In this document: piece after piece, positions 39,001-45,000 of the stretch
Position numbering within the stretch: the stretch's first letter is position 1
How the letters are laid out: every line of letters begins with the position of its first letter
Origin: Enterobacteria phage phi80
Strand: one strand, 5' to 3'
Sequence record: NC_021190.1
DNA: 46,150 nucleotides
Position numbers: made by a program

Positions 39001-42000
39001 ACTCAAAGACTGGCGCGAGAAGAGAAGCCTTTCACAAAATAGTCTGAGCCACGTTTGGTACAAGGAAATAAGCGACTACCTGATCAAGTCTGGGCGCACT
39101 GACGCAACGCCTGCATGGGTAAAGCGAAACCTCAAAAAAACTTATCTGGGTTATGAAGAGGTTGAGTACACCGATTTCGTCACCGGAATTAAGACGATTG
39201 AATTAGAACTCCGCCACACGTCCGATCTGGACACTGGCGACATGCACCATTTCATGTGCCAGGTGGAAGGCTGGTGCGCTCAGTTTGGCCTGGTGCTCAC
39301 AATCCCTCAAAGCAGCGAATTTCAGGTGCTGCGCGATAAGCAGGAGGCCTGATGTCAACTCCACTTTCCCGCGTCATCACAAACGAAATCTTTCGCGTTC
39401 CGGCGCGCCGCAAGCCTAAGCCCGCGGTTAAGCCATCCGATATCCCGACCCTGAAAGACTACACCGCCCGCCTGGTGGATCAGAAATGGCTGCGACTCGC
39501 GGCGAGGAGAAAATCTGCATGAGCATGTATCAACGCATTAATGGCGCTGACTGGCGCAATATTTTCGTCGTCGGCGATCTGCATGGGTGCTACACGCTGC
39601 TGATGAATGAACTCGAAAAGGTTTCGTTCGACCCTGCGTGTGATTTGCTGATTTCGGTTGGAGACCTTGTTGACCGCGGCGCGGAAAACGTCGAGTGCCT
39701 GGAGCTGATTACTATGCCTTGGTTCCGGGCTGTGCGAGGTAACCATGAGCAGATGATGATTGATGGGCTATCGGAGTATGGAAACGTTAACCACTGGCTG
39801 GAAAACGGCGGCGTGTGGTTCTTCAGTCTTGATTATGAAAAAGAGGTGCTGGCTAAGGCTCTGGTTCATAAATCGGCCAGCCTGCCATTCGTCATCGAGC
39901 TGGTTACCGCTGAACGTAAAATCGTTATCTGCCACGCTGACTACCCGCATAACGAATATGCGTTCGACAAGCCGGTCCCGAAAGACATGGTCATCTGGAA
40001 TCGTGAACGGGTTAGCGACGCTCAGGACGGCATTGTCTCGCCGATAGCTGGTGCTGATCTGTTTATCTTCGGCCACACCCCTGCGCGCCAGCCCCTGAAG
40101 TATGCCAACCAGATGTACATCGATACTGGTGCCGTGTTCTGCGGAAACCTCACGCTGGTACAGGTTCAAGGTGGTGCCCATGCGTAAACCATCCCGCCGT
40201 AAGTGCAAAGTATGCGGTGAATACTTCGTGCCGAAATTCCACGACATCCGGATCCGGTGGTGCAGCCCGGAGCATGGCGCAATCCTCGCAATGGAAGAAC
40301 GCAAGAAGGAGAAGGTGAAAGCCGCGGCTAAGCGCATCAAGGAGCAAAAAGAGGCTGAAAAGGACGGGCGCAAACGCCGCAAGGAGCGGCTGGCAGAGCT
40401 CAGGCCAGACGGATACTACAAGGCTCAGGCTCAGAAAGCTTTCAACGCCTTTATCCGTGCGCGCGACGCCGATTTGCCATGCATCAGCTGCGGCGAGACC
40501 AATCCGCCTGATCTGCATGGTGGCCAGTGGGATTGCGGCCATTTCAAGACAGTAGGTGCTTACCCTGAACTGCGCTTTGAAGAACGCAACGCCCATAAGC
40601 AGTGCAAATCCTGTAATGCCGGAGCTGGCAAGTACACCGCCAAAGAGGCGACCGTGGCGCAGCAATACGAAGCTGGGTTGGTCGCTCGTTACGGTCAGGG
40701 ATACGTCAACTGGCTCAATGGTCCCCACGAAATGACCAACTACCGCCGTGAAGACTTCATCCGGATCCGGGATGAGTACCGCGACAAGCTCAAAGCACTG
40801 AAACAGCGGGAGGCAGCATGAAACCAATGATATTCGATCTCAAGCTACCTCATTGGGCTTTTCTGCTTGAGTGTCCGTTCTGTGGCGGCGGCGCAGAACT
40901 TTTTTCTGATGGTGATGGTGTCTACGCCGGTTGTTCAACAAAGCAATGCTTGATTAAGCCGATAACTGACACCTATCCAACAAAGCGCGATGCAATTCGC
41001 GCCTGGAATCGGAGGCCATCATGACCAGAGACGAGATAACCCGATACCAGGCCGAAAGCGTTAAGCGCGCCAGCATGCCGCCAATAGTAAAGCACAGCCA
41101 GACCAAAACCCACCAGCCACAGAAGGAAGCCGCATAATGAACCTCGAATCAATCGCTAAATACTTTGCGCCTAAATCACCGATGTTCAGTGACTCTCCTC
41201 GCGCAACCGCATCAGACAGTCTCACCGGCACTGACGTTATGGCGGCGCTTGGCCTTGCTGGCCACAAGTGCGGGTTTGGTTTCGATCTTTACCTCTCGAA
41301 AATCGGCATTAGCAGCCCAGATATAGCACTGGAGAGACTCTATGAGCAGGCACGTAAGTTATCAGGTAAATTCAGAGCACTGTCTGAACTCGATGAATCA
41401 GCTCGGTCAGGCGTGCTTAAGGTTCTCTGCGCTTTTGCATACCAGGATTATTCAAGAAGTGCTGCCAGCACTCGAAAATGTGATTGCTGTGATGGTGGCG
41501 GATTTACAGAGGCGCAAGTGTTTACCAACAAGGTCTCATACCCATGGGGGAAACCGCCTTACTGGTCGAAAATGTCGCGTGCCGTTCGCCCAAGCGACTG
41601 GGAGAGCTGGACACAGGCGCGTGAGGTGGTGCGAGTTAAGTGCAAGCCGTGTAACGGAAAAGGCGTTATCAGCAATTCGTGTCGCTGCCATGGCAAAGGT
41701 AAGGTGCTGGACAAGGCAGAAAGCGATCGCCAGGGCGTTCCAGTAATGAAAGCCTGCGACCGCTGCGGTGGTAGAGGTTACGCCAGGCTTAAGTTCTCAA
41801 CGGTAATTGAGGGCGTTAATACTGTTGCGGAGATAAAGAAAACGGCGGCATATGAGCAACTTCAGCCGCTATTTGAGGAGTTGGTCGCCGAATGCCATAA
41901 ACAGGAGTCTATGGCTGATTCCATTCTCTCAAAAGTAACGAGATGAAAATAATTTTCCCTAATGTTGAAAATATATAGGAAATAGGTATTGCATTTCGCG

Positions 42001-45000
42001 GAAAAACTGGATAGATTCATCTCTAACGCTGGGAATACGTTCAGTCGTTCCGAAGCCAAAAAAATTCAAGCCCGAGGTTAACGCCTTGGGCTTTTTTTAT
42101 TTCTTTGTGGCCTAAATCGCTTCGAGCCAAAAAAACGCGGAGAACGACATCACCCCTCTCCGCAATAACGACTCAATCTCATACCCGCTTGTCTTTCTTT
42201 TATCCACAAAGAGGTAAAGCCATAACTTAGTGGAAATGGTAACAGCTAAAAACTATTTGAAAAGCTAATTATTTTTTGCATCAACTGGCTATTCTTAAGG
42301 ATTGTTTAATTTTTTGCTTTCCTAGCGAGAAAGAAGCTCCGGAAACTATCAATCAATACAAGGCTGCCGTTCGGCGGCCTTTTTTATTCCTAGCAACAGC
42401 ACTCGCACAAAGCGAGGTGAGAGTATGTATCGCATGGACAAACTAACCACTGGTGCTGCCTATGGCGCTTCAGCCGGGAGCATCCTAAACGGCATGTTGA
42501 ATGCCTACAGCCCCGAGCAGTGGAACGCTATCGGCGTGCTGGTGGGTATCATCATTGCCGTAATGACGTATCTGACAAATCTCTATTTCAAAATCCGCGA
42601 AGACAACCGCCGCAGCAGGAGCCGAGATGAACCCAACGTTGAGGAATAAGCTGGTGGGTGCCATTGTTGGCGGATCAGGGGCAATCACTATTGCTGCAGT
42701 AATGCTGGGCAATGCGGATGGACTCGAAGGTCGGCGTTATTACGCCTATCAGGATGTGGTCGGCGTCTGGACCGTTTGCGATGGGCACACTGGTACCGAC
42801 ATTCGCCGCGGTCACCGATATACCGACAAAGAGTGTGACAACCTGCTTAAGGCAGATCTGCGAAAGGTGGCAAGCGCCATCGACCCGCTGATCAAGGTTC
42901 GCATCCCTGAGCCAACCCGCGCCGCGCTTTACTCCTTCACCTATAACGTTGGCTCTGGTGCTTTTGCCAGCTCGACGCTGCTGAAGAAGCTGAACTCCGG
43001 TGATGTTCCGGGTGCGTGTAAAGAACTGCAGCGCTGGACTTATGCTGGCGGCAAGCAGTGGAAGGGGCTGATCACCCGGCGCGAGATTGAGCGTGAAGTC
43101 TGCGAGTGGGGCCAGAAATGAGCCGATTAACCGCAATCATCTGCGCTGTCGTTATCTGCCTGCTGGTTTCCATGGCCTGGGCCATTAACCACTACCGCGA
43201 CAACGCCATCACCTACAAAGACCAGCGCGACAAAGCCACCAAAAGTCTCCGCCTGGCTAACGACACCATCAAAGACATGCAGACCCGTCAGCGTGATGTC
43301 GCTGCACTGGATGCCAAATACACCGGAGAACTGGCTGATGCGAAAGAAACCATTGAGCGTCTGCATAGCGATGTCATTGCTGGCCGTAAGCGGCTGCAAG
43401 TCGCCGCCACCTGTGCAAAGTCAACGACCGGAGCCAGCAGCATGGGCGATGGAGAAAGCCCAAGACTTACAGCAGATGCTGAACTCAATTATTACCGTCT
43501 CCGAAGTGGAATCGACAGGATAACCGCGCAGGTTAACTACCTGCAGGAATACATCAGGACGCAATGCCTGAAATAATTTTTTTGCAAATCACAAAGTCAA
43601 TTTAATGAGCCTCGCGATGCGGGGCTTTTTTATGTCCGCAGTAAACGCGCATCTCACGCGCATATTAACGAGAGCCTTTCAGTAAGCGAGCCTGAGAAAT
43701 GCCGTTATAGGTGGCGACCTCTCTCGGGCGGCTTTTCTGTGAGACAGGCTCACTTTCTAAAAGGTAAAGACGCTATGAATAATCCGTCAGTTATTCCGGC
43801 CTTCGACTTCCGCGAAATGGTCACGACCCTCGACAACAAGATAATCACCACATCACTCAAGGTGGCGGATTACTTTGGCAAGCGACACAAAGACGTTTTG
43901 CGTGCCATACGTAACCTGAAATGCTCCGATGACTTCACCCAGCGCAATTTTGCGCCCATTGATTTCATTGATAAAAATGGCGATGTTCAGCCTATGTATA
44001 ACATCACCCGCGACGGATGCATGATGCTAGTGATGGGATTCACTGGCAAAACAGCTGCCGCAGTGAAGGAGTGTTACATCAATGCCTTCAACTGGATGGC
44101 CGAGCAGCTAAACCGGCGCATGGCGATGGGTGAAGAATTGCAGCATCGCTACGCCATCAAAGAAACGCGCTCAAAGCTGAAAGGCACGATCGGAAGCCGT
44201 TTGATGAACGAGCGGAAGAAAGAGAAGCGCGTCCTGGAGCTCGAACATGAGCACATCATGCAGGTAACGCAGCCAGAATTGTTGATTGGCTGATCGCGGC
44301 ATTACAGCAGGCATTCACTGAGTGCCTGTGATAATGCAACAGCCCGTACAAAACGGGCTTGGATTTATCTCTTTGTTGCGTTCATGGTCACATGGTAAAC
44401 GAATTGGCTAAATTGGTTATCCCAGCGCCCATTATGATTAGCTGCAACTAATTGCATTAACGCCTGCATTAACTTGCTGAACAGCAAGATTAACTTAAGT
44501 CTGTTTTTTGAACTGTCACTATCTAAGGAAACTTCTTCGGTTAATTGATTCTCGGCGTTAAAAATACCCAGTTTTGATTCTTCCATGCTGGGTTCCGTTG
44601 GATGCTGTTTAAAGTATTCAGTCAGAGTATCCTTCAGGCTCTGGATCCTTGAATCAGCAATGCTTTGTATTGATGGATTGTGTGCAAGGTCATTACGCAT
44701 TGAGTTGATGGTTTTAAGTGATTTCATAAGTTCCGGGGGGATTCCCAGGTTTCCCGCCATGGATATTTTAGTATTACATTCGATTAAAAGTTTGTTTTTA
44801 TCTCTTCCAAAGAGATCTTGGCAGTCACAGCATGCGCATATCCATGCTTCGACCATGCGCTCACAAAGTAGGTGAATGCGCAATGTAGTACCCACATCGT
44901 CATCGCTTTCCACTGCTCTCGCGAATAAAGATGGAAAATCAATCTCATGGTAATAGTCCATGAAAATCCTTGTATTCATAAATCCTCCAGGTAGCTATAT

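What the first reader, a model, noticed from the sequence alone, without database searches (positions are those of the whole stretch)
41989..42390. pR'-tR' short transcript followed by a 260-bp ORF-less segment bounded by a second terminator
TTGCAT-17-TAGATT is followed about 50-75 nt later by a strong terminator, like lambda's short paused late RNA. Before the holin there is a further 260 bp with no ORF, containing a hairpin (GCGGAGA...TCTCCGC, about 42136-42162) and ending in another terminator. This is a slot where other lambdoid phages carry toxin or tRNA cargo; here it may encode a small RNA or be an empty cargo site.
Basis: partly seen in the sequence, partly recalled or inferred. Interest (0 to 1): 0.4.

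Follow-up and report, generated by a model that had tools for sequence, protein, structure and literature searches.

The report
Phage late leader hides antisense sRNA
Between the late-gene switch and the lysis genes of phage phi80 (the prophage carried by DH5alpha and DH10B) lies the expected short terminated late transcript, followed not by empty space but by a conserved mobile non-coding cassette that most likely makes a ~100-nt small RNA from the opposite strand and ends in a back-up terminator.

Summary
The window is phage phi80. TTGCAT-17-TAGATT sits just after a lambda-family Q gene. It is followed by AACGCT-GGG, as in lambda pR', and by a strong terminator, giving an RNA of about 74 nt. 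This short late RNA is already known for phi80.

The ORF-less stretch is neither empty nor phi80-specific. It is a sharply bounded cassette (42114/42128-42390). I found 47 distinct versions in 70 loci, at 74-89% identity, almost always directly upstream of a holin. Genomes encoding the identical Q protein carry nothing, a short insert, or tRNA genes at this position, so it is a cargo slot.

An invariant A-run precedes it. On the minus strand the two read as an intrinsic terminator. About 100 nt upstream on that strand lies the only promoter-like site conserved in all versions, an extended -10 (TGTTAYYAT).

My best reading is a minus-strand sRNA gene plus a genuine second plus-strand terminator. 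In position, orientation and layout this mirrors the PasA/PasC sRNAs of EPEC prophages, but it shows no sequence homology to them. No Rfam family matches and no record annotates it. No expression data were available, so the sRNA is inferred.

The parts
41137..41946 (+). Q antiterminator gene (269 aa), lambda Q family
   Evidence: ORF. Pfam PF03589 Antiterm, E=1.3e-34. RefSeq annotates it as 'antitermination protein', WP_001047620.1.
41989..42017 (+). Late promoter pR': -35 TTGCAT (41989-94), 17-nt spacer, -10 TAGATT (42012-17)
   Evidence: Read. It matches 7 of 12 consensus positions and is not listed by the scan. Its layout parallels lambda TTGACT-17-TAAATT. It is conserved in Klebsiella phages.
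42025..42033 (+). AACGCT + GGG: -10-like sigma-dependent pause element in the initially transcribed region. The start of transcription is inferred at about 42025.
   Evidence: It sits at the same distance from the -10 as AACGAT GGG in lambda pR'. PHB10-type relatives have TAACGATGGG. The role of this element in lambda rests on established knowledge (work of the Roberts laboratory), not on a test made here.
42068..42100 (+). tR' intrinsic terminator (11-bp stem, loop of 4, T7). It ends a short late RNA of about 74 nt (42025-42098).
   Evidence: MFE -26.9 kcal/mol, z = -3.63, and 0 of 200 shuffles fold as well.
42128..42164 (-). Predicted 3' end of the antisense sRNA.
   Evidence: The core is invariant in 43-47 versions. 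The stem extends to 9-11 pairs on the minus strand only: pair 79:91 is standard in 37/37 versions on the minus strand against 8/37 on the plus strand, and pair 71:99 in 35/37 against 23/37. Mean dG is -15.4 against -12.9 kcal/mol. No T-run follows the hairpin on the + strand.
42184..42210 (-). Highly conserved, apparently unstructured stretch inside the predicted sRNA (minus strand UUUGUGGAUAAAAGAAAGACAAGCGGG). Candidate seed or Hfq-binding (A-R-N-like) region.
   Evidence: Conservation. No conserved pairing was found there. The function is inferred.
42236..42244 (-). Extended -10 promoter on the minus strand: TG (42244-43), T, then hexamer TACCAT (42241-36). Predicted start at about 42229, giving an RNA of about 100 nt that ends near 42128.
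   Evidence: This is the only position on either strand where all 47 versions score above threshold in a sigma-70 weight-matrix scan. The motif is TGTTAYYAT in 47/47, varying only at hexamer positions 3-4, and the distance to the end of the U-run is 98-100 nt in 46 of 46 versions that could be measured. Caveat: TGnTAnnnT is expected about once per region by chance.
42265..42279 (-). A/T tract (minus strand AAAAAATAATTAGC), about 40-55 bp upstream of the predicted minus-strand start. UP-element-like.
   Evidence: Conserved block GTTAATTATTTT. The role is inferred from its position.
42294..42317 (.). Invariant block CTTAAGGATTGTTTAATTTTTTGC, of unknown role. Candidates: a regulator site upstream of the minus-strand promoter, or the 5' arm of a weak + strand hairpin (AGGA:UCCU).
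   Evidence: It was used as the search pattern that found 54 loci. It is retained in L022/L036, where everything to its right is replaced.
42360..42387 (+). Second + strand intrinsic terminator (9-bp stem, loop of 4, T6), 38 nt before the holin start. It forms the right-hand end of the cassette.
   Evidence: Pair changes UG/UA/CG and CG/UG keep the stem on the + strand. In L022/L036 a different terminator sits at the same place.
42391..42424 (+). Holin translation-initiation segment: hairpin CTCGC-acaaa-GCGAG (42402-42416) overlapping the Shine-Dalgarno GAGGTGAGAG, just before the dual-start holin (Met1/Met4).
   Evidence: The segment is shared by two unrelated holin types, and by the Klebsiella phage that lacks the cassette.
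42425..42649 (+). Class II (phage 21 S-type) holin, the first late gene
   Evidence: Pfam PF04971, E=5e-25. RefSeq: 'class II holin family protein'.

Best explanation
The region holds two separable modules.

Module A (about 41950-42100) is the lambda-type late switch.
- pR' fires constitutively.
- RNA polymerase pauses at the AACGCT-GGG element, where Q can load.
- Without Q it stops at tR', leaving an RNA of about 74 nt with an Hfq-sRNA-like shape.

Module B (42114/42128-42390) is a mobile non-coding cassette that travels with lysis cassettes. Its left two-thirds form a small-RNA gene on the strand opposite to the late operon.
- An extended -10 promoter (TGTTACCAT, 42244-42236) has an A/T-rich upstream tract.
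- It would start an RNA near 42229 that runs leftwards for about 100 nt.
- That RNA would stop at the hairpin 42162-42136 plus U7, about 29 nt short of the 3' end of the tR' RNA. The two transcripts converge without overlapping.

Its right end is a real + strand terminator that backs up tR' just before the holin gene.

Inferred function: in a lysogen the antisense RNA is made by host sigma-70 polymerase. It could act in cis, in trans, or both.
- In cis it would pair perfectly with any late transcript that leaks past tR'. The duplex would be an RNase III substrate, and convergent transcription would add interference. Together with terminator 2 this would keep holin silent.
- In trans it would act as an Hfq-type sRNA on host mRNAs, as shown for the similarly placed PasA of EPEC.

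Shown here: the sequence elements, their conservation, their strand asymmetry and the cassette behaviour. Inferred: transcription itself, its start point, and both proposed functions.
For: Identity and module A:
- The window is phi80, 100% identical to the prophage of DH5alpha and DH10B.
- Q belongs to the lambda Q family.
- The pR' layout, including AACGNT-GGG, matches lambda.
- tR' is strong and the short RNA folds well, z = -3.6.
- Sy et al. 2020 list phi80 among phages that give short late RNAs.

Cassette nature of module B:
- BLAST boundaries are sharp at 42114-42124 and 42423, in loci whose upstream flanks differ and which carry two holin types.
- There are 47 distinct versions in 70 loci.
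- Cargo such as tRNA-Arg, small ORFs, STnc100 and a cspA-like gene sits between tR' and the cassette in relatives.
- Genomes encoding the identical Q protein lack the cassette.

Minus-strand gene:
- The hairpin and the adjacent A-run (U-run on the minus strand) are the most invariant part.
- The stem gains G-U or A-U pairs on the minus strand only, and is more stable there.
- The single promoter-like site conserved in 47/47 versions is on the minus strand. It varies only at the two least critical hexamer positions and lies a constant 98-100 nt from the end of the U-run.
- Conservation stops at the U-run on the left.

Precedent:
- PasA and PasC of E2348/69 lie between an upstream cargo gene and a class II holin, on the opposite strand ('> < >'). 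They are about 80-85 nt, depend on Hfq for stability, and end in a terminator with a large loop. An A-run plus hairpin sits on the sense strand, and a sense-strand terminator lies about 45 nt before the holin (bioRxiv 10.64898/2026.05.13.724894).

Terminator 2:
- Compensatory and G-U changes keep the stem on the + strand.
Against: - No expression data of any kind were available. The RNA is predicted only.
- The motif TGnTAnnnT is expected about once by chance in a region of this size and composition. A second, unconserved copy exists at 42351-42343.
- There is no recognisable -35.
- The whole cassette is highly conserved, so conservation of the motif is only partly independent evidence.
- The hairpin never varies in its 7 core pairs, so there is no true covariation for it.
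- The body of the predicted sRNA has no conserved structure. The phi80 copy folds no better than shuffles, z = -1.4.
- The invariant block 42294-42317 and the A/U-rich right half are not explained by the model.
- No in-window trans target stood out above shuffled controls.
- There is no sequence homology to PasA/PasC.
Confidence: 0.55

Rival explanations
1. The stretch is only the untranslated leader of the late operon. It carries tandem + strand terminators (tR' plus terminator 2) for tight control. The hairpin acts in the + strand RNA, for example as a 5' stabiliser after processing or as a protein-binding site. No independent transcript arises from the stretch.
For: - Terminator 2 is a genuine + strand terminator.
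- Lambda also has a long tR'-S spacer with a further terminator-like hairpin. From my own knowledge, Luk and Szybalski (1983) described tandem terminators in the lambda late operon.
- A weak + strand pairing, AGGA:UCCU, shows G-U variants.
- The cassette always has the same orientation relative to the holin.
Against: - A + strand role does not explain the invariant A-run immediately 5' of the hairpin.
- It does not explain the pairs that are standard only on the minus strand.
- It does not explain the conserved minus-strand extended -10 at a fixed distance.
- RNAalifold finds essentially no conserved + strand structure apart from the hairpin and the terminator; the covariation term is about 0.
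- Relatives encoding the identical Q protein manage with a ~105-nt leader and no second terminator.
Confidence: 0.25
2. The sequence is conserved because it is a recombination linker. Shared non-coding boundary sequence, namely terminator tails of the form TTTTTTATTTC and the flanks around them, would let lambdoid phages swap lysis cassettes and cargo. It would have no RNA or regulatory function of its own.
For: - The junction T-run + ATT(T/C)C recurs at tR', at terminator 2, and at the ends of the tRNA, STnc100 and CX05 inserts.
- Mosaic joints fall exactly at these points.
Against: - Recombination alone would not keep a block of about 40 nt and a 24-nt block invariant while neighbouring columns drift to 75% identity.
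- It would not restrict change in the TGTTAYYAT motif to two positions.
- It would not preserve a terminator-shaped element on the minus strand.
Confidence: 0.1
3. A small protein is encoded on the minus strand (42207-42112, 31 aa, VDKRKTSGYEIESLLRRGVMSFSAFFWLEAI), for example a small toxic or membrane peptide.
For: - The frame stays open across the invariant core in most versions.
- A similar peptide, (V/M)DKRKT...LLRRGVMSFSA(L/F)F, can be read in most of them.
Against: - The frame is broken by a 1-nt deletion in L025.
- The middle third varies freely at the amino-acid level, and the C-terminus differs in every subgroup.
- The start is GTG with no Shine-Dalgarno sequence.
- The invariant 27+ nt show no synonymous variation, which points to a constraint on the nucleic acid.
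- In phi80 the stop codon lies beyond the terminator's U-run, so a terminated transcript would carry no stop codon.
Confidence: 0.03
4. The right half (about 42320-42385) is a + strand Hfq-type sRNA: a stem-loop, an A/U-rich linker, then a terminator with U6. It would be made from its own promoter, or by processing of transcripts that read through tR'.
For: - The shape fits: a pyrimidine/purine hairpin, the linker AACUAUCAAUCAAUACA, then the terminator and U6.
- The terminator works on the + strand.
Against: - No + strand promoter-like site is conserved. The best column scores above threshold in fewer than half of the versions, and phi80 scores poorly there.
- This part is replaced wholesale in L022/L036, while the left part and block 42294-42317 are kept.
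- The Rfam sub-threshold matches here are driven by the terminator alone.
Confidence: 0.07

Closest known systems
Lambda pR' - 6S RNA - tR' late control module (lambda Q family)
   Same: - The Q protein belongs to the same Pfam family.
- The promoter lies directly after Q, with a 17-nt spacer.
- AACGNT-GGG follows the -10 at the same distance.
- An intrinsic terminator ends a short constitutive RNA.
   Different: - The phi80 RNA is about 74 nt, against 194 nt for lambda 6S (the lambda length is from my own knowledge).
- The promoter hexamers and the sequences between them differ.
- The phi80 Q is longer (269 aa) and has a sub-threshold DnaJ-type zinc-finger match.
StxS (Sy et al. 2020, PMC7547250): an Hfq-binding sRNA derived from the terminated pR' transcript of Stx phages
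   Same: - It arises the same way, from pR' to tR' in lysogens.
- The predicted shape is similar: a 5' stem-loop, an A-rich single strand, then a terminator with a U-tail.
   Different: - Hfq binding, processing and targets are not known for phi80.
- No Rfam family matched at gathering score. I did not compare the sequence with StxS directly.
PasA / PasC sRNAs of EPEC E2348/69 prophages (Pearl Mizrahi 2021, PMC8550237; Zhu, Shabalina and Storz 2026, bioRxiv 10.64898/2026.05.13.724894)
   Same: - They lie immediately upstream of a class II holin and downstream of cargo.
- They are on the strand opposite to the late genes.
- They are about 80-100 nt.
- Their terminator has a large loop and a long U-run.
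- A separate sense-strand terminator lies about 40 nt before the holin.
- The overall span is about 255-260 nt.
   Different: - No detectable sequence similarity: an nhmmer profile of the cassette against both Pas loci gave E >= 0.9.
- PasA and PasC are experimentally shown and Hfq-dependent; the phi80 RNA is only predicted.
- Pas genes are largely confined to pathogenic E. coli and Shigella. This cassette is absent from wild E. coli in 5,426 complete genomes, where it occurs only in the 62 genomes carrying phi80, and otherwise turns up in Enterobacter genomes and in viral or metagenome contigs of unstated host.
Lambda OOP RNA and P22 sar RNA (short phage antisense RNAs ending at intrinsic terminators)
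   Same: - Each is a short, constitutively made RNA that converges on a phage operon and ends at its own terminator.
- The proposed mechanism is the same: the duplex with the sense transcript is cut by RNase III. This comparison rests on my own knowledge.
   Different: - OOP and sar overlap coding regions or ribosome-binding sites of their targets.
- The phi80 RNA would overlap only the untranslated late leader, about 200 nt upstream of the holin start.
STnc100 (Rfam RF02076), a prophage sRNA found in Q-to-lysis regions
   Same: It occupies the same inter-module space. In PHB10-type relatives it lies about 90 nt upstream of the cassette, on the + strand.
   Different: It is absent from phi80, is unrelated in sequence, and is on the sense strand.

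Membership tests
Lambda-type Q / pR' / tR' late switch | Q antiterminator of the lambda Q family encoded directly upstream | tested here: met
   PF03589, E=1.3e-34, 118.7 bits against a cut-off of 26.7.
Lambda-type Q / pR' / tR' late switch | Sigma-70 promoter followed by a -10-like pause element in the initially transcribed region | tested here: met
   TTGCAT-17-TAGATT, then AACGCT-GGG seven nt after the -10. Lambda has TTGACT-17-TAAATT, then AACGAT-GGG. The promoter alone matches only 7 of 12 consensus positions.
Lambda-type Q / pR' / tR' late switch | Intrinsic terminator shortly downstream that is read through only when Q is present | tested here: inconclusive
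   The terminator is present and strong. Q-dependent read-through cannot be tested with these tools.
StxS-like regulatory RNA from the terminated pR' transcript | Hfq binding and trans-acting seed | not testable with these tools
   Only the shape can be assessed: a stem-loop, an A-rich linker and a terminator with U7.
PasA/PasC sRNA family | Position between upstream cargo and a class II holin, on the strand opposite to the late genes | tested here: met
   For position. For orientation: the predicted promoter and terminator are both on the minus strand. The orientation is predicted, not observed.
PasA/PasC sRNA family | Sequence or structural homology to PasA/PasC | tested here: not met
   nhmmer with the 43-sequence cassette profile against both Pas loci gave no hit better than E=0.9, and that hit lies outside the Pas genes. 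The folds differ.
PasA/PasC sRNA family | Hfq-dependent stable RNA of about 80-85 nt | not testable with these tools
   The predicted length is 98-100 nt. There are no expression data.
Intrinsic (Rho-independent) terminator, minus strand, at 42164-42128 | G+C-rich stem-loop immediately followed by a U-run on the transcribed strand | tested here: met
   A stem of 9-11 pairs (dG about -15.4 kcal/mol) followed by 1-2 nt and then U5-U7 in all versions. The scan missed it because its loop limit is 8 nt when only the 7-pair core is counted.
Extended -10 sigma-70 promoter, minus strand | TG one base upstream of a TAnnnT hexamer, without need for a -35 | tested here: met
   TGTTAYYAT in 47/47 versions, and the best-conserved site in the weight-matrix scan. 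The chance expectation is about 1 per region. Activity was not tested.
tRNA or toxin cargo | tRNA gene or protein-coding cargo in the slot | tested here: not met
   ARAGORN found no tRNA genes in the window. No ORF is conserved. Relatives do carry tRNAs there.
Any Rfam family | Match at the curated gathering score | tested here: not met
   There were no matches in the whole window. The best sub-threshold matches are Phe_leader at 29.2 bits against a threshold of 55, and isrJ at 25.1 against 37. Both are driven by terminators.

The most novel reading that the evidence does not exclude
The cassette encodes a previously undescribed family of prophage antisense sRNAs. The RNA would be made constitutively in lysogens, including the standard cloning strains DH5alpha, DH10B and TOP10. 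It would have two roles: a cis-acting safety catch that destroys late transcripts leaking past tR' before they reach the holin gene, and a trans-acting Hfq sRNA that reprogrammes host genes. The invariant terminator loop and the GGAUAAAAGAAAGACAA stretch would serve as seeds. Together with PasA/PasC, this would make 'an antisense sRNA guarding the holin' a convergent, general feature of lambdoid lysis cassettes.
Probability: 0.25. Interest if true: 0.6.

Novelty: new member of a known kind. Interest (0 to 1): 0.42.

Why it matters
Phi80 is a classic phage, and its remnant sits in the most widely used cloning strains. An unannotated regulatory RNA there would be expressed in countless experiments. 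It could be tested at once with existing strains and public RNA-seq data.

More generally, the comparison shows that the space between Q and the lysis genes is built from exchangeable cassettes, each ending in its own terminator. It also shows that two unrelated sequences, this cassette and PasA/PasC, put a small antisense-oriented RNA gene plus a back-up terminator right in front of the holin. That convergence suggests a selected function, either silencing lysis genes in lysogens or manipulating the host, and not filler DNA.

The pR'-tR' part itself is ordinary and already known.

Tried and rejected
- Rfam, whole window at gathering score: nothing. A permissive scan gave only terminator-driven sub-threshold matches.
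- tRNA or tRNA remnant: ARAGORN found none.
- Coding potential: the minus-strand 31-aa frame was rejected. The + strand frames are broken by single-base indels between versions.
- A structured + strand leader RNA: RNAalifold gave only the hairpin and the terminator, with a covariation term of about 0. The right half gave only a weak AGGA:UCCU helix.
- Pairing between the pyrimidine-rich block 42189-42207 and the purine-rich GAGAAAGAAG was checked by eye. It does not covary in the second clade, so I rejected it.
- A conserved + strand promoter for a right-half sRNA: not found.
- Alternative sigma-factor and activator sites (sigma-54, sigma-32, sigma-E, Ogr TGT-N12-ACA, CRP, PhoP, IHF) were checked by eye in the conserved blocks. 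None fits.
- Homology to PasA/PasC: none.
- Trans targets within phi80: duplex energies against 217 translation-start regions were no better than with a shuffled seed. Other copies of the core in the window: only 3-mismatch matches.
- Eleven of the 17-mer matches in viral contigs were chance matches inside coding regions of unrelated phages.
- Literature: full-text searches for the core sequence, and for phi80 with small or antisense RNA, found nothing relevant. The RacR/lysN study concerns the region inside the holin gene, not this segment. Roberts 1975 (cited for the short late RNAs) and the phi80 genome paper are not held in the library.

Full report
**Identity and setting**

The 491 bases around the finding are 100% identical to the phi80 prophage of DH5alpha, DH10B, TOP10 and other laboratory strains. 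The window is therefore phage phi80.

The gene order is ninG, lar-like gene, a small ORF, Q (41137-41946), then 478 non-coding bases. These are followed by a phage 21-type class II holin (42425-42649), a lysozyme and a lysis (spanin-position) gene. Q belongs to the lambda Q family (PF03589, E=1e-34).

**Checking the observation**

TTGCAT (41989-41994), a 17-nt spacer and TAGATT (42012-42017) are present.

Taken alone the pair matches 7 of 12 consensus positions, and the consensus scan did not report it. The hexamers by themselves are weak evidence. The context is what makes the call.
- Seven nt after the -10 comes AACGCT-GGG (42025-42033). Lambda pR' has TTGACT-17-TAAATT followed at the same distance by AACGAT-GGG. 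From established work on lambda, that -10-like element holds sigma-70 and creates the promoter-proximal pause at which Q loads.
- PHB10-type relatives with a related Q have TTTACT-N16-TAATTT followed by TAACGATGGG.
- Klebsiella phages share the phi80 block at 86-91% identity.

tR' is an 11-pair stem followed by T7. The predicted RNA of about 74 nt (42025-42098) folds into a 5' stem-loop, an A-rich single strand and the terminator. Its z-score is -3.6.

Sy et al. 2020 state that short antitermination-regulated RNAs are produced from the late promoters of phages 21, phi80, 82 and P22. This part of the finding is correct but already known.

**The ORF-less segment is a conserved cassette**

Window 42124-42423 matches phage PHB10 at 80% identity, while the pR'-tR' block matches different phages. 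The region is therefore mosaic.

Exact-pattern scans with conserved strings recovered the segment in IMG/VR contigs, in species-representative genomes (two Enterobacter and one unnamed bacterium) and in metagenomes. In all there are 70 loci and 47 distinct 400-nt versions. They fall into two clades, 74-89% identical to phi80.

BLAST boundaries are sharp, at 42114-42124 on the left and 42423 on the right. The cassette lies 86 to about 1,600 nt downstream of a Q gene of one of two types. In some loci no Q of these two types lies within 3 kb. It is nearly always directly upstream of one of two unrelated holins.

The space between tR' and the cassette holds variable cargo in relatives:
- tRNA-Arg;
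- a conserved ~65-aa ORF;
- one or two copies of the Rfam sRNA STnc100;
- a cspA-like gene with its thermoregulator leader.

Two wild E. coli strains encode the identical Q protein (WP_001047620.1), with 99% identical pR'-tR', but lack the cassette.
- Strain 1218KP goes from tR' through a ~105-nt leader to a lambda-type holin.
- Strain CX05 has a ~110-nt insert with its own terminator.

A Klebsiella phage with a related Q and pR'-tR' and the phi80-type holin has tRNA-Asn, tRNA-Ser and a terminator in the slot.

The phi80 occupant is a specific, conserved element and not an empty site. Among 5,426 complete E. coli genomes it occurs only in the 62 that carry phi80.

**What the cassette contains**

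Coding potential is poor.
- Versions differ by single-base indels.
- The one frame that stays open in most versions (minus strand, 31 aa in phi80) is frameshifted in L025.
- That frame varies freely in its middle and its C-terminus, has a GTG start without a Shine-Dalgarno sequence, and has no stop codon before the terminator.

Terminator 2 is genuine and works on the + strand. Its stem positions change between C-G, U-G and U-A, and between G-C and G-U. In L022/L036 a different terminator replaces it at the same place.

**The hairpin reads better on the other strand**

The invariant core is AAAAA(A)-N2-GCGGAGAACGACATCA-NNC-YTCTCCGC. On the + strand an A-run before a hairpin has no obvious use, and no T-run follows the hairpin. 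On the minus strand the same bases form a hairpin followed by U5-U7, which is an intrinsic terminator.

Two further pairs extend the 7-pair core on the minus strand only.
- G:U or A:U at alignment columns 79:91 is standard in 37/37 distinct versions on the minus strand, against 8/37 on the + strand.
- U:A or U:G at columns 71:99 is standard in 35/37 against 23/37.

Mean stability is -15.4 kcal/mol on the minus strand against -12.9 on the + strand.

I then scored every position of both strands of all 47 versions with a sigma-70 weight matrix that includes a bonus for an extended -10.
- Exactly one alignment column exceeds the threshold in 100% of versions. It is on the minus strand, with its hexamer at 42241-42236. 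One search prints 42244 for this column; I corrected that figure by 3 nt after re-indexing.
- The next best columns reach at most 47%.
- The motif is TGTTAYYAT in 47/47 versions. It varies only at hexamer positions 3 and 4, the least constrained positions of a -10.
- The distance from the inferred start to the end of the U-run is 98-100 nt in all 46 versions where it could be measured.
- An A/T tract lies where an UP element would be.
- Conservation ends on the left at the U-run.

Together these features describe a transcription unit of about 100 nt on the minus strand, running from about 42229 to about 42128. It would stop about 29 nt from the 3' end of the tR' RNA.

**Caveats**

- TGnTAnnnT is expected about once by chance in a region of this size and composition. 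A second, unconserved copy lies at 42351-42343.
- The seven core pairs never vary, so they carry no covariation signal.
- The body of the predicted RNA is unstructured, and the phi80 copy folds no better than shuffles, z = -1.4.
- The invariant block 42294-42317 remains unexplained. It stays with the left part in L022/L036, where everything to its right is replaced. I therefore tentatively assign it to the upstream control region of the minus-strand promoter.
- No expression data were available.

**Comparison with known systems**

A 2026 preprint on the Pas sRNAs notes that a conserved holin/lysozyme operon lies directly next to pasA, pasC and pasD1.

Table S6 of Pearl Mizrahi et al. 2021 places PasA (85 nt) and PasC (79 nt) on the strand opposite to their flanking genes, written '> < >'. 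Both were confirmed by Northern blot, and their stability depends on Hfq.

I read the E2348/69 locus directly. On the late-gene strand it shows:
- A7 followed by a hairpin with a 17-nt loop, which is the PasA terminator on the other strand;
- about 200 nt of spacer;
- a sense-strand terminator;
- about 45 nt more, and then the class II holin.

This is the same order and the same span (about 255 nt) as in phi80.

There is no sequence similarity. A profile of the 43 cassette versions finds nothing in either Pas locus. The phi80 element is therefore an analogue, not a member, of the PasA/PasC family: a new family of a known kind.

No Rfam model matches it. No record in the phage or E. coli collections annotates anything there.

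**Likely mechanism**

Shown here: the elements, their conservation, their strand asymmetry and the cassette behaviour.

Inferred:
- Host sigma-70 polymerase makes the antisense RNA in lysogens.
- Because the RNA is perfectly complementary to the late leader, any transcript escaping tR' would form a ~100-bp duplex, which is an RNase III substrate.
- Convergent transcription and terminator 2 would add two further barriers before the holin gene.
- During lytic growth, heavy Q-modified transcription from pR' should occlude the antisense promoter.
- A trans-acting role through Hfq, as for PasA, is equally possible. The candidate seeds are the conserved single-stranded GGAUAAAAGAAAGACAA stretch, the AU-rich run before the hairpin, and the U-tail.
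- I could not find a convincing trans target inside phi80.

**Verdict**

Module A is ordinary and already known. Module B is a conserved, unannotated cassette. It most probably encodes an antisense-oriented sRNA and carries a back-up terminator. My confidence in that composite reading is about 0.55. The main rival, a plain leader with tandem terminators and a + strand hairpin, gets about 0.25.

Noticed in passing
L074, L075, L077, L078, L079, L080 (metagenome contigs): Over the 400-nt stretch compared, these contigs are 100% identical to phi80. They include contigs from assemblies labelled marine and human gut. This looks like contamination by laboratory E. coli or phi80 ('Lula') rather than environmental phage.
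   Followed up: no
window 42092-42103 and 42380-42391; L083 2694-2706; L084 2693-2703 and 2794-2806; L003 3130-3145 and 3479-3492: Every cassette in the Q-to-holin space ends in a terminator tail of the form T5-8 A TT(T/C)(C/T). The mosaic joints between relatives fall exactly there. These tails may act as the recombination joints that shuffle cargo.
   Followed up: partly
L002 2695-2900; L004 558-763; L037 2762-2967; L044 969-1174 and 1192-1398; L050 9337-9542 and 9580-9796; L046 11729-11934; L067 11669-11870: The Rfam sRNA STnc100 (RF02076) lies just upstream of the cassette in many relatives, sometimes as a tandem pair. It is absent from phi80.
   Followed up: partly
L046 11975-12428: A cspA-like cold-shock gene, complete with the cspA thermoregulator leader (RF01766, 193.7 bits), is carried as cargo between Q and the cassette in one relative.
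   Followed up: no
window 42391-42424: The holin translation-initiation segment, a hairpin CTCGC-acaaa-GCGAG overlapping the Shine-Dalgarno sequence just before a dual-start Met1/Met4 holin, is shared almost unchanged by two unrelated holin families. It is reminiscent of the sdi structure that governs the lambda S dual start.
   Followed up: no
minus strand, about 42250-42265 in phi80; clearer in L043-L072: The inverted repeat AACTAT-N4-ATAGTT overlaps the -35 and spacer region of the predicted minus-strand promoter in most relatives. That is an operator-like position. The repeat is degenerate in phi80 (AGCTTT...ATAGTT).
   Followed up: no
window 42351-42343, minus strand: A second extended -10-like motif (TGATAGTTT) is present but not conserved in the second clade. 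If active, it would give a minus-strand precursor of about 205 nt, recalling the minor 236-nt form of PasA.
   Followed up: no
window 42016-42094: The pR' short RNA gives a sub-threshold Rfam match to Salmonella isrJ (25.1 bits against a threshold of 37, E=0.019). The match is confined to the A-rich linker and the terminator, and is probably not meaningful.
   Followed up: no
window 42110-42115: GCCTAA, a motif proposed as a RacR half-site in the study showing that Rac prophage RacR activates the phi80 lysozyme gene (PMC6715736), occurs between tR' and the cassette. That study's probe covered 42392-42633, not this site.
   Followed up: no
L084 2704-2806: E. coli CX05 carries an unexplained G+C-rich insert of about 110 nt, with its own terminator, in the slot after the identical Q and pR'-tR'. 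I did not examine it further.
   Followed up: no
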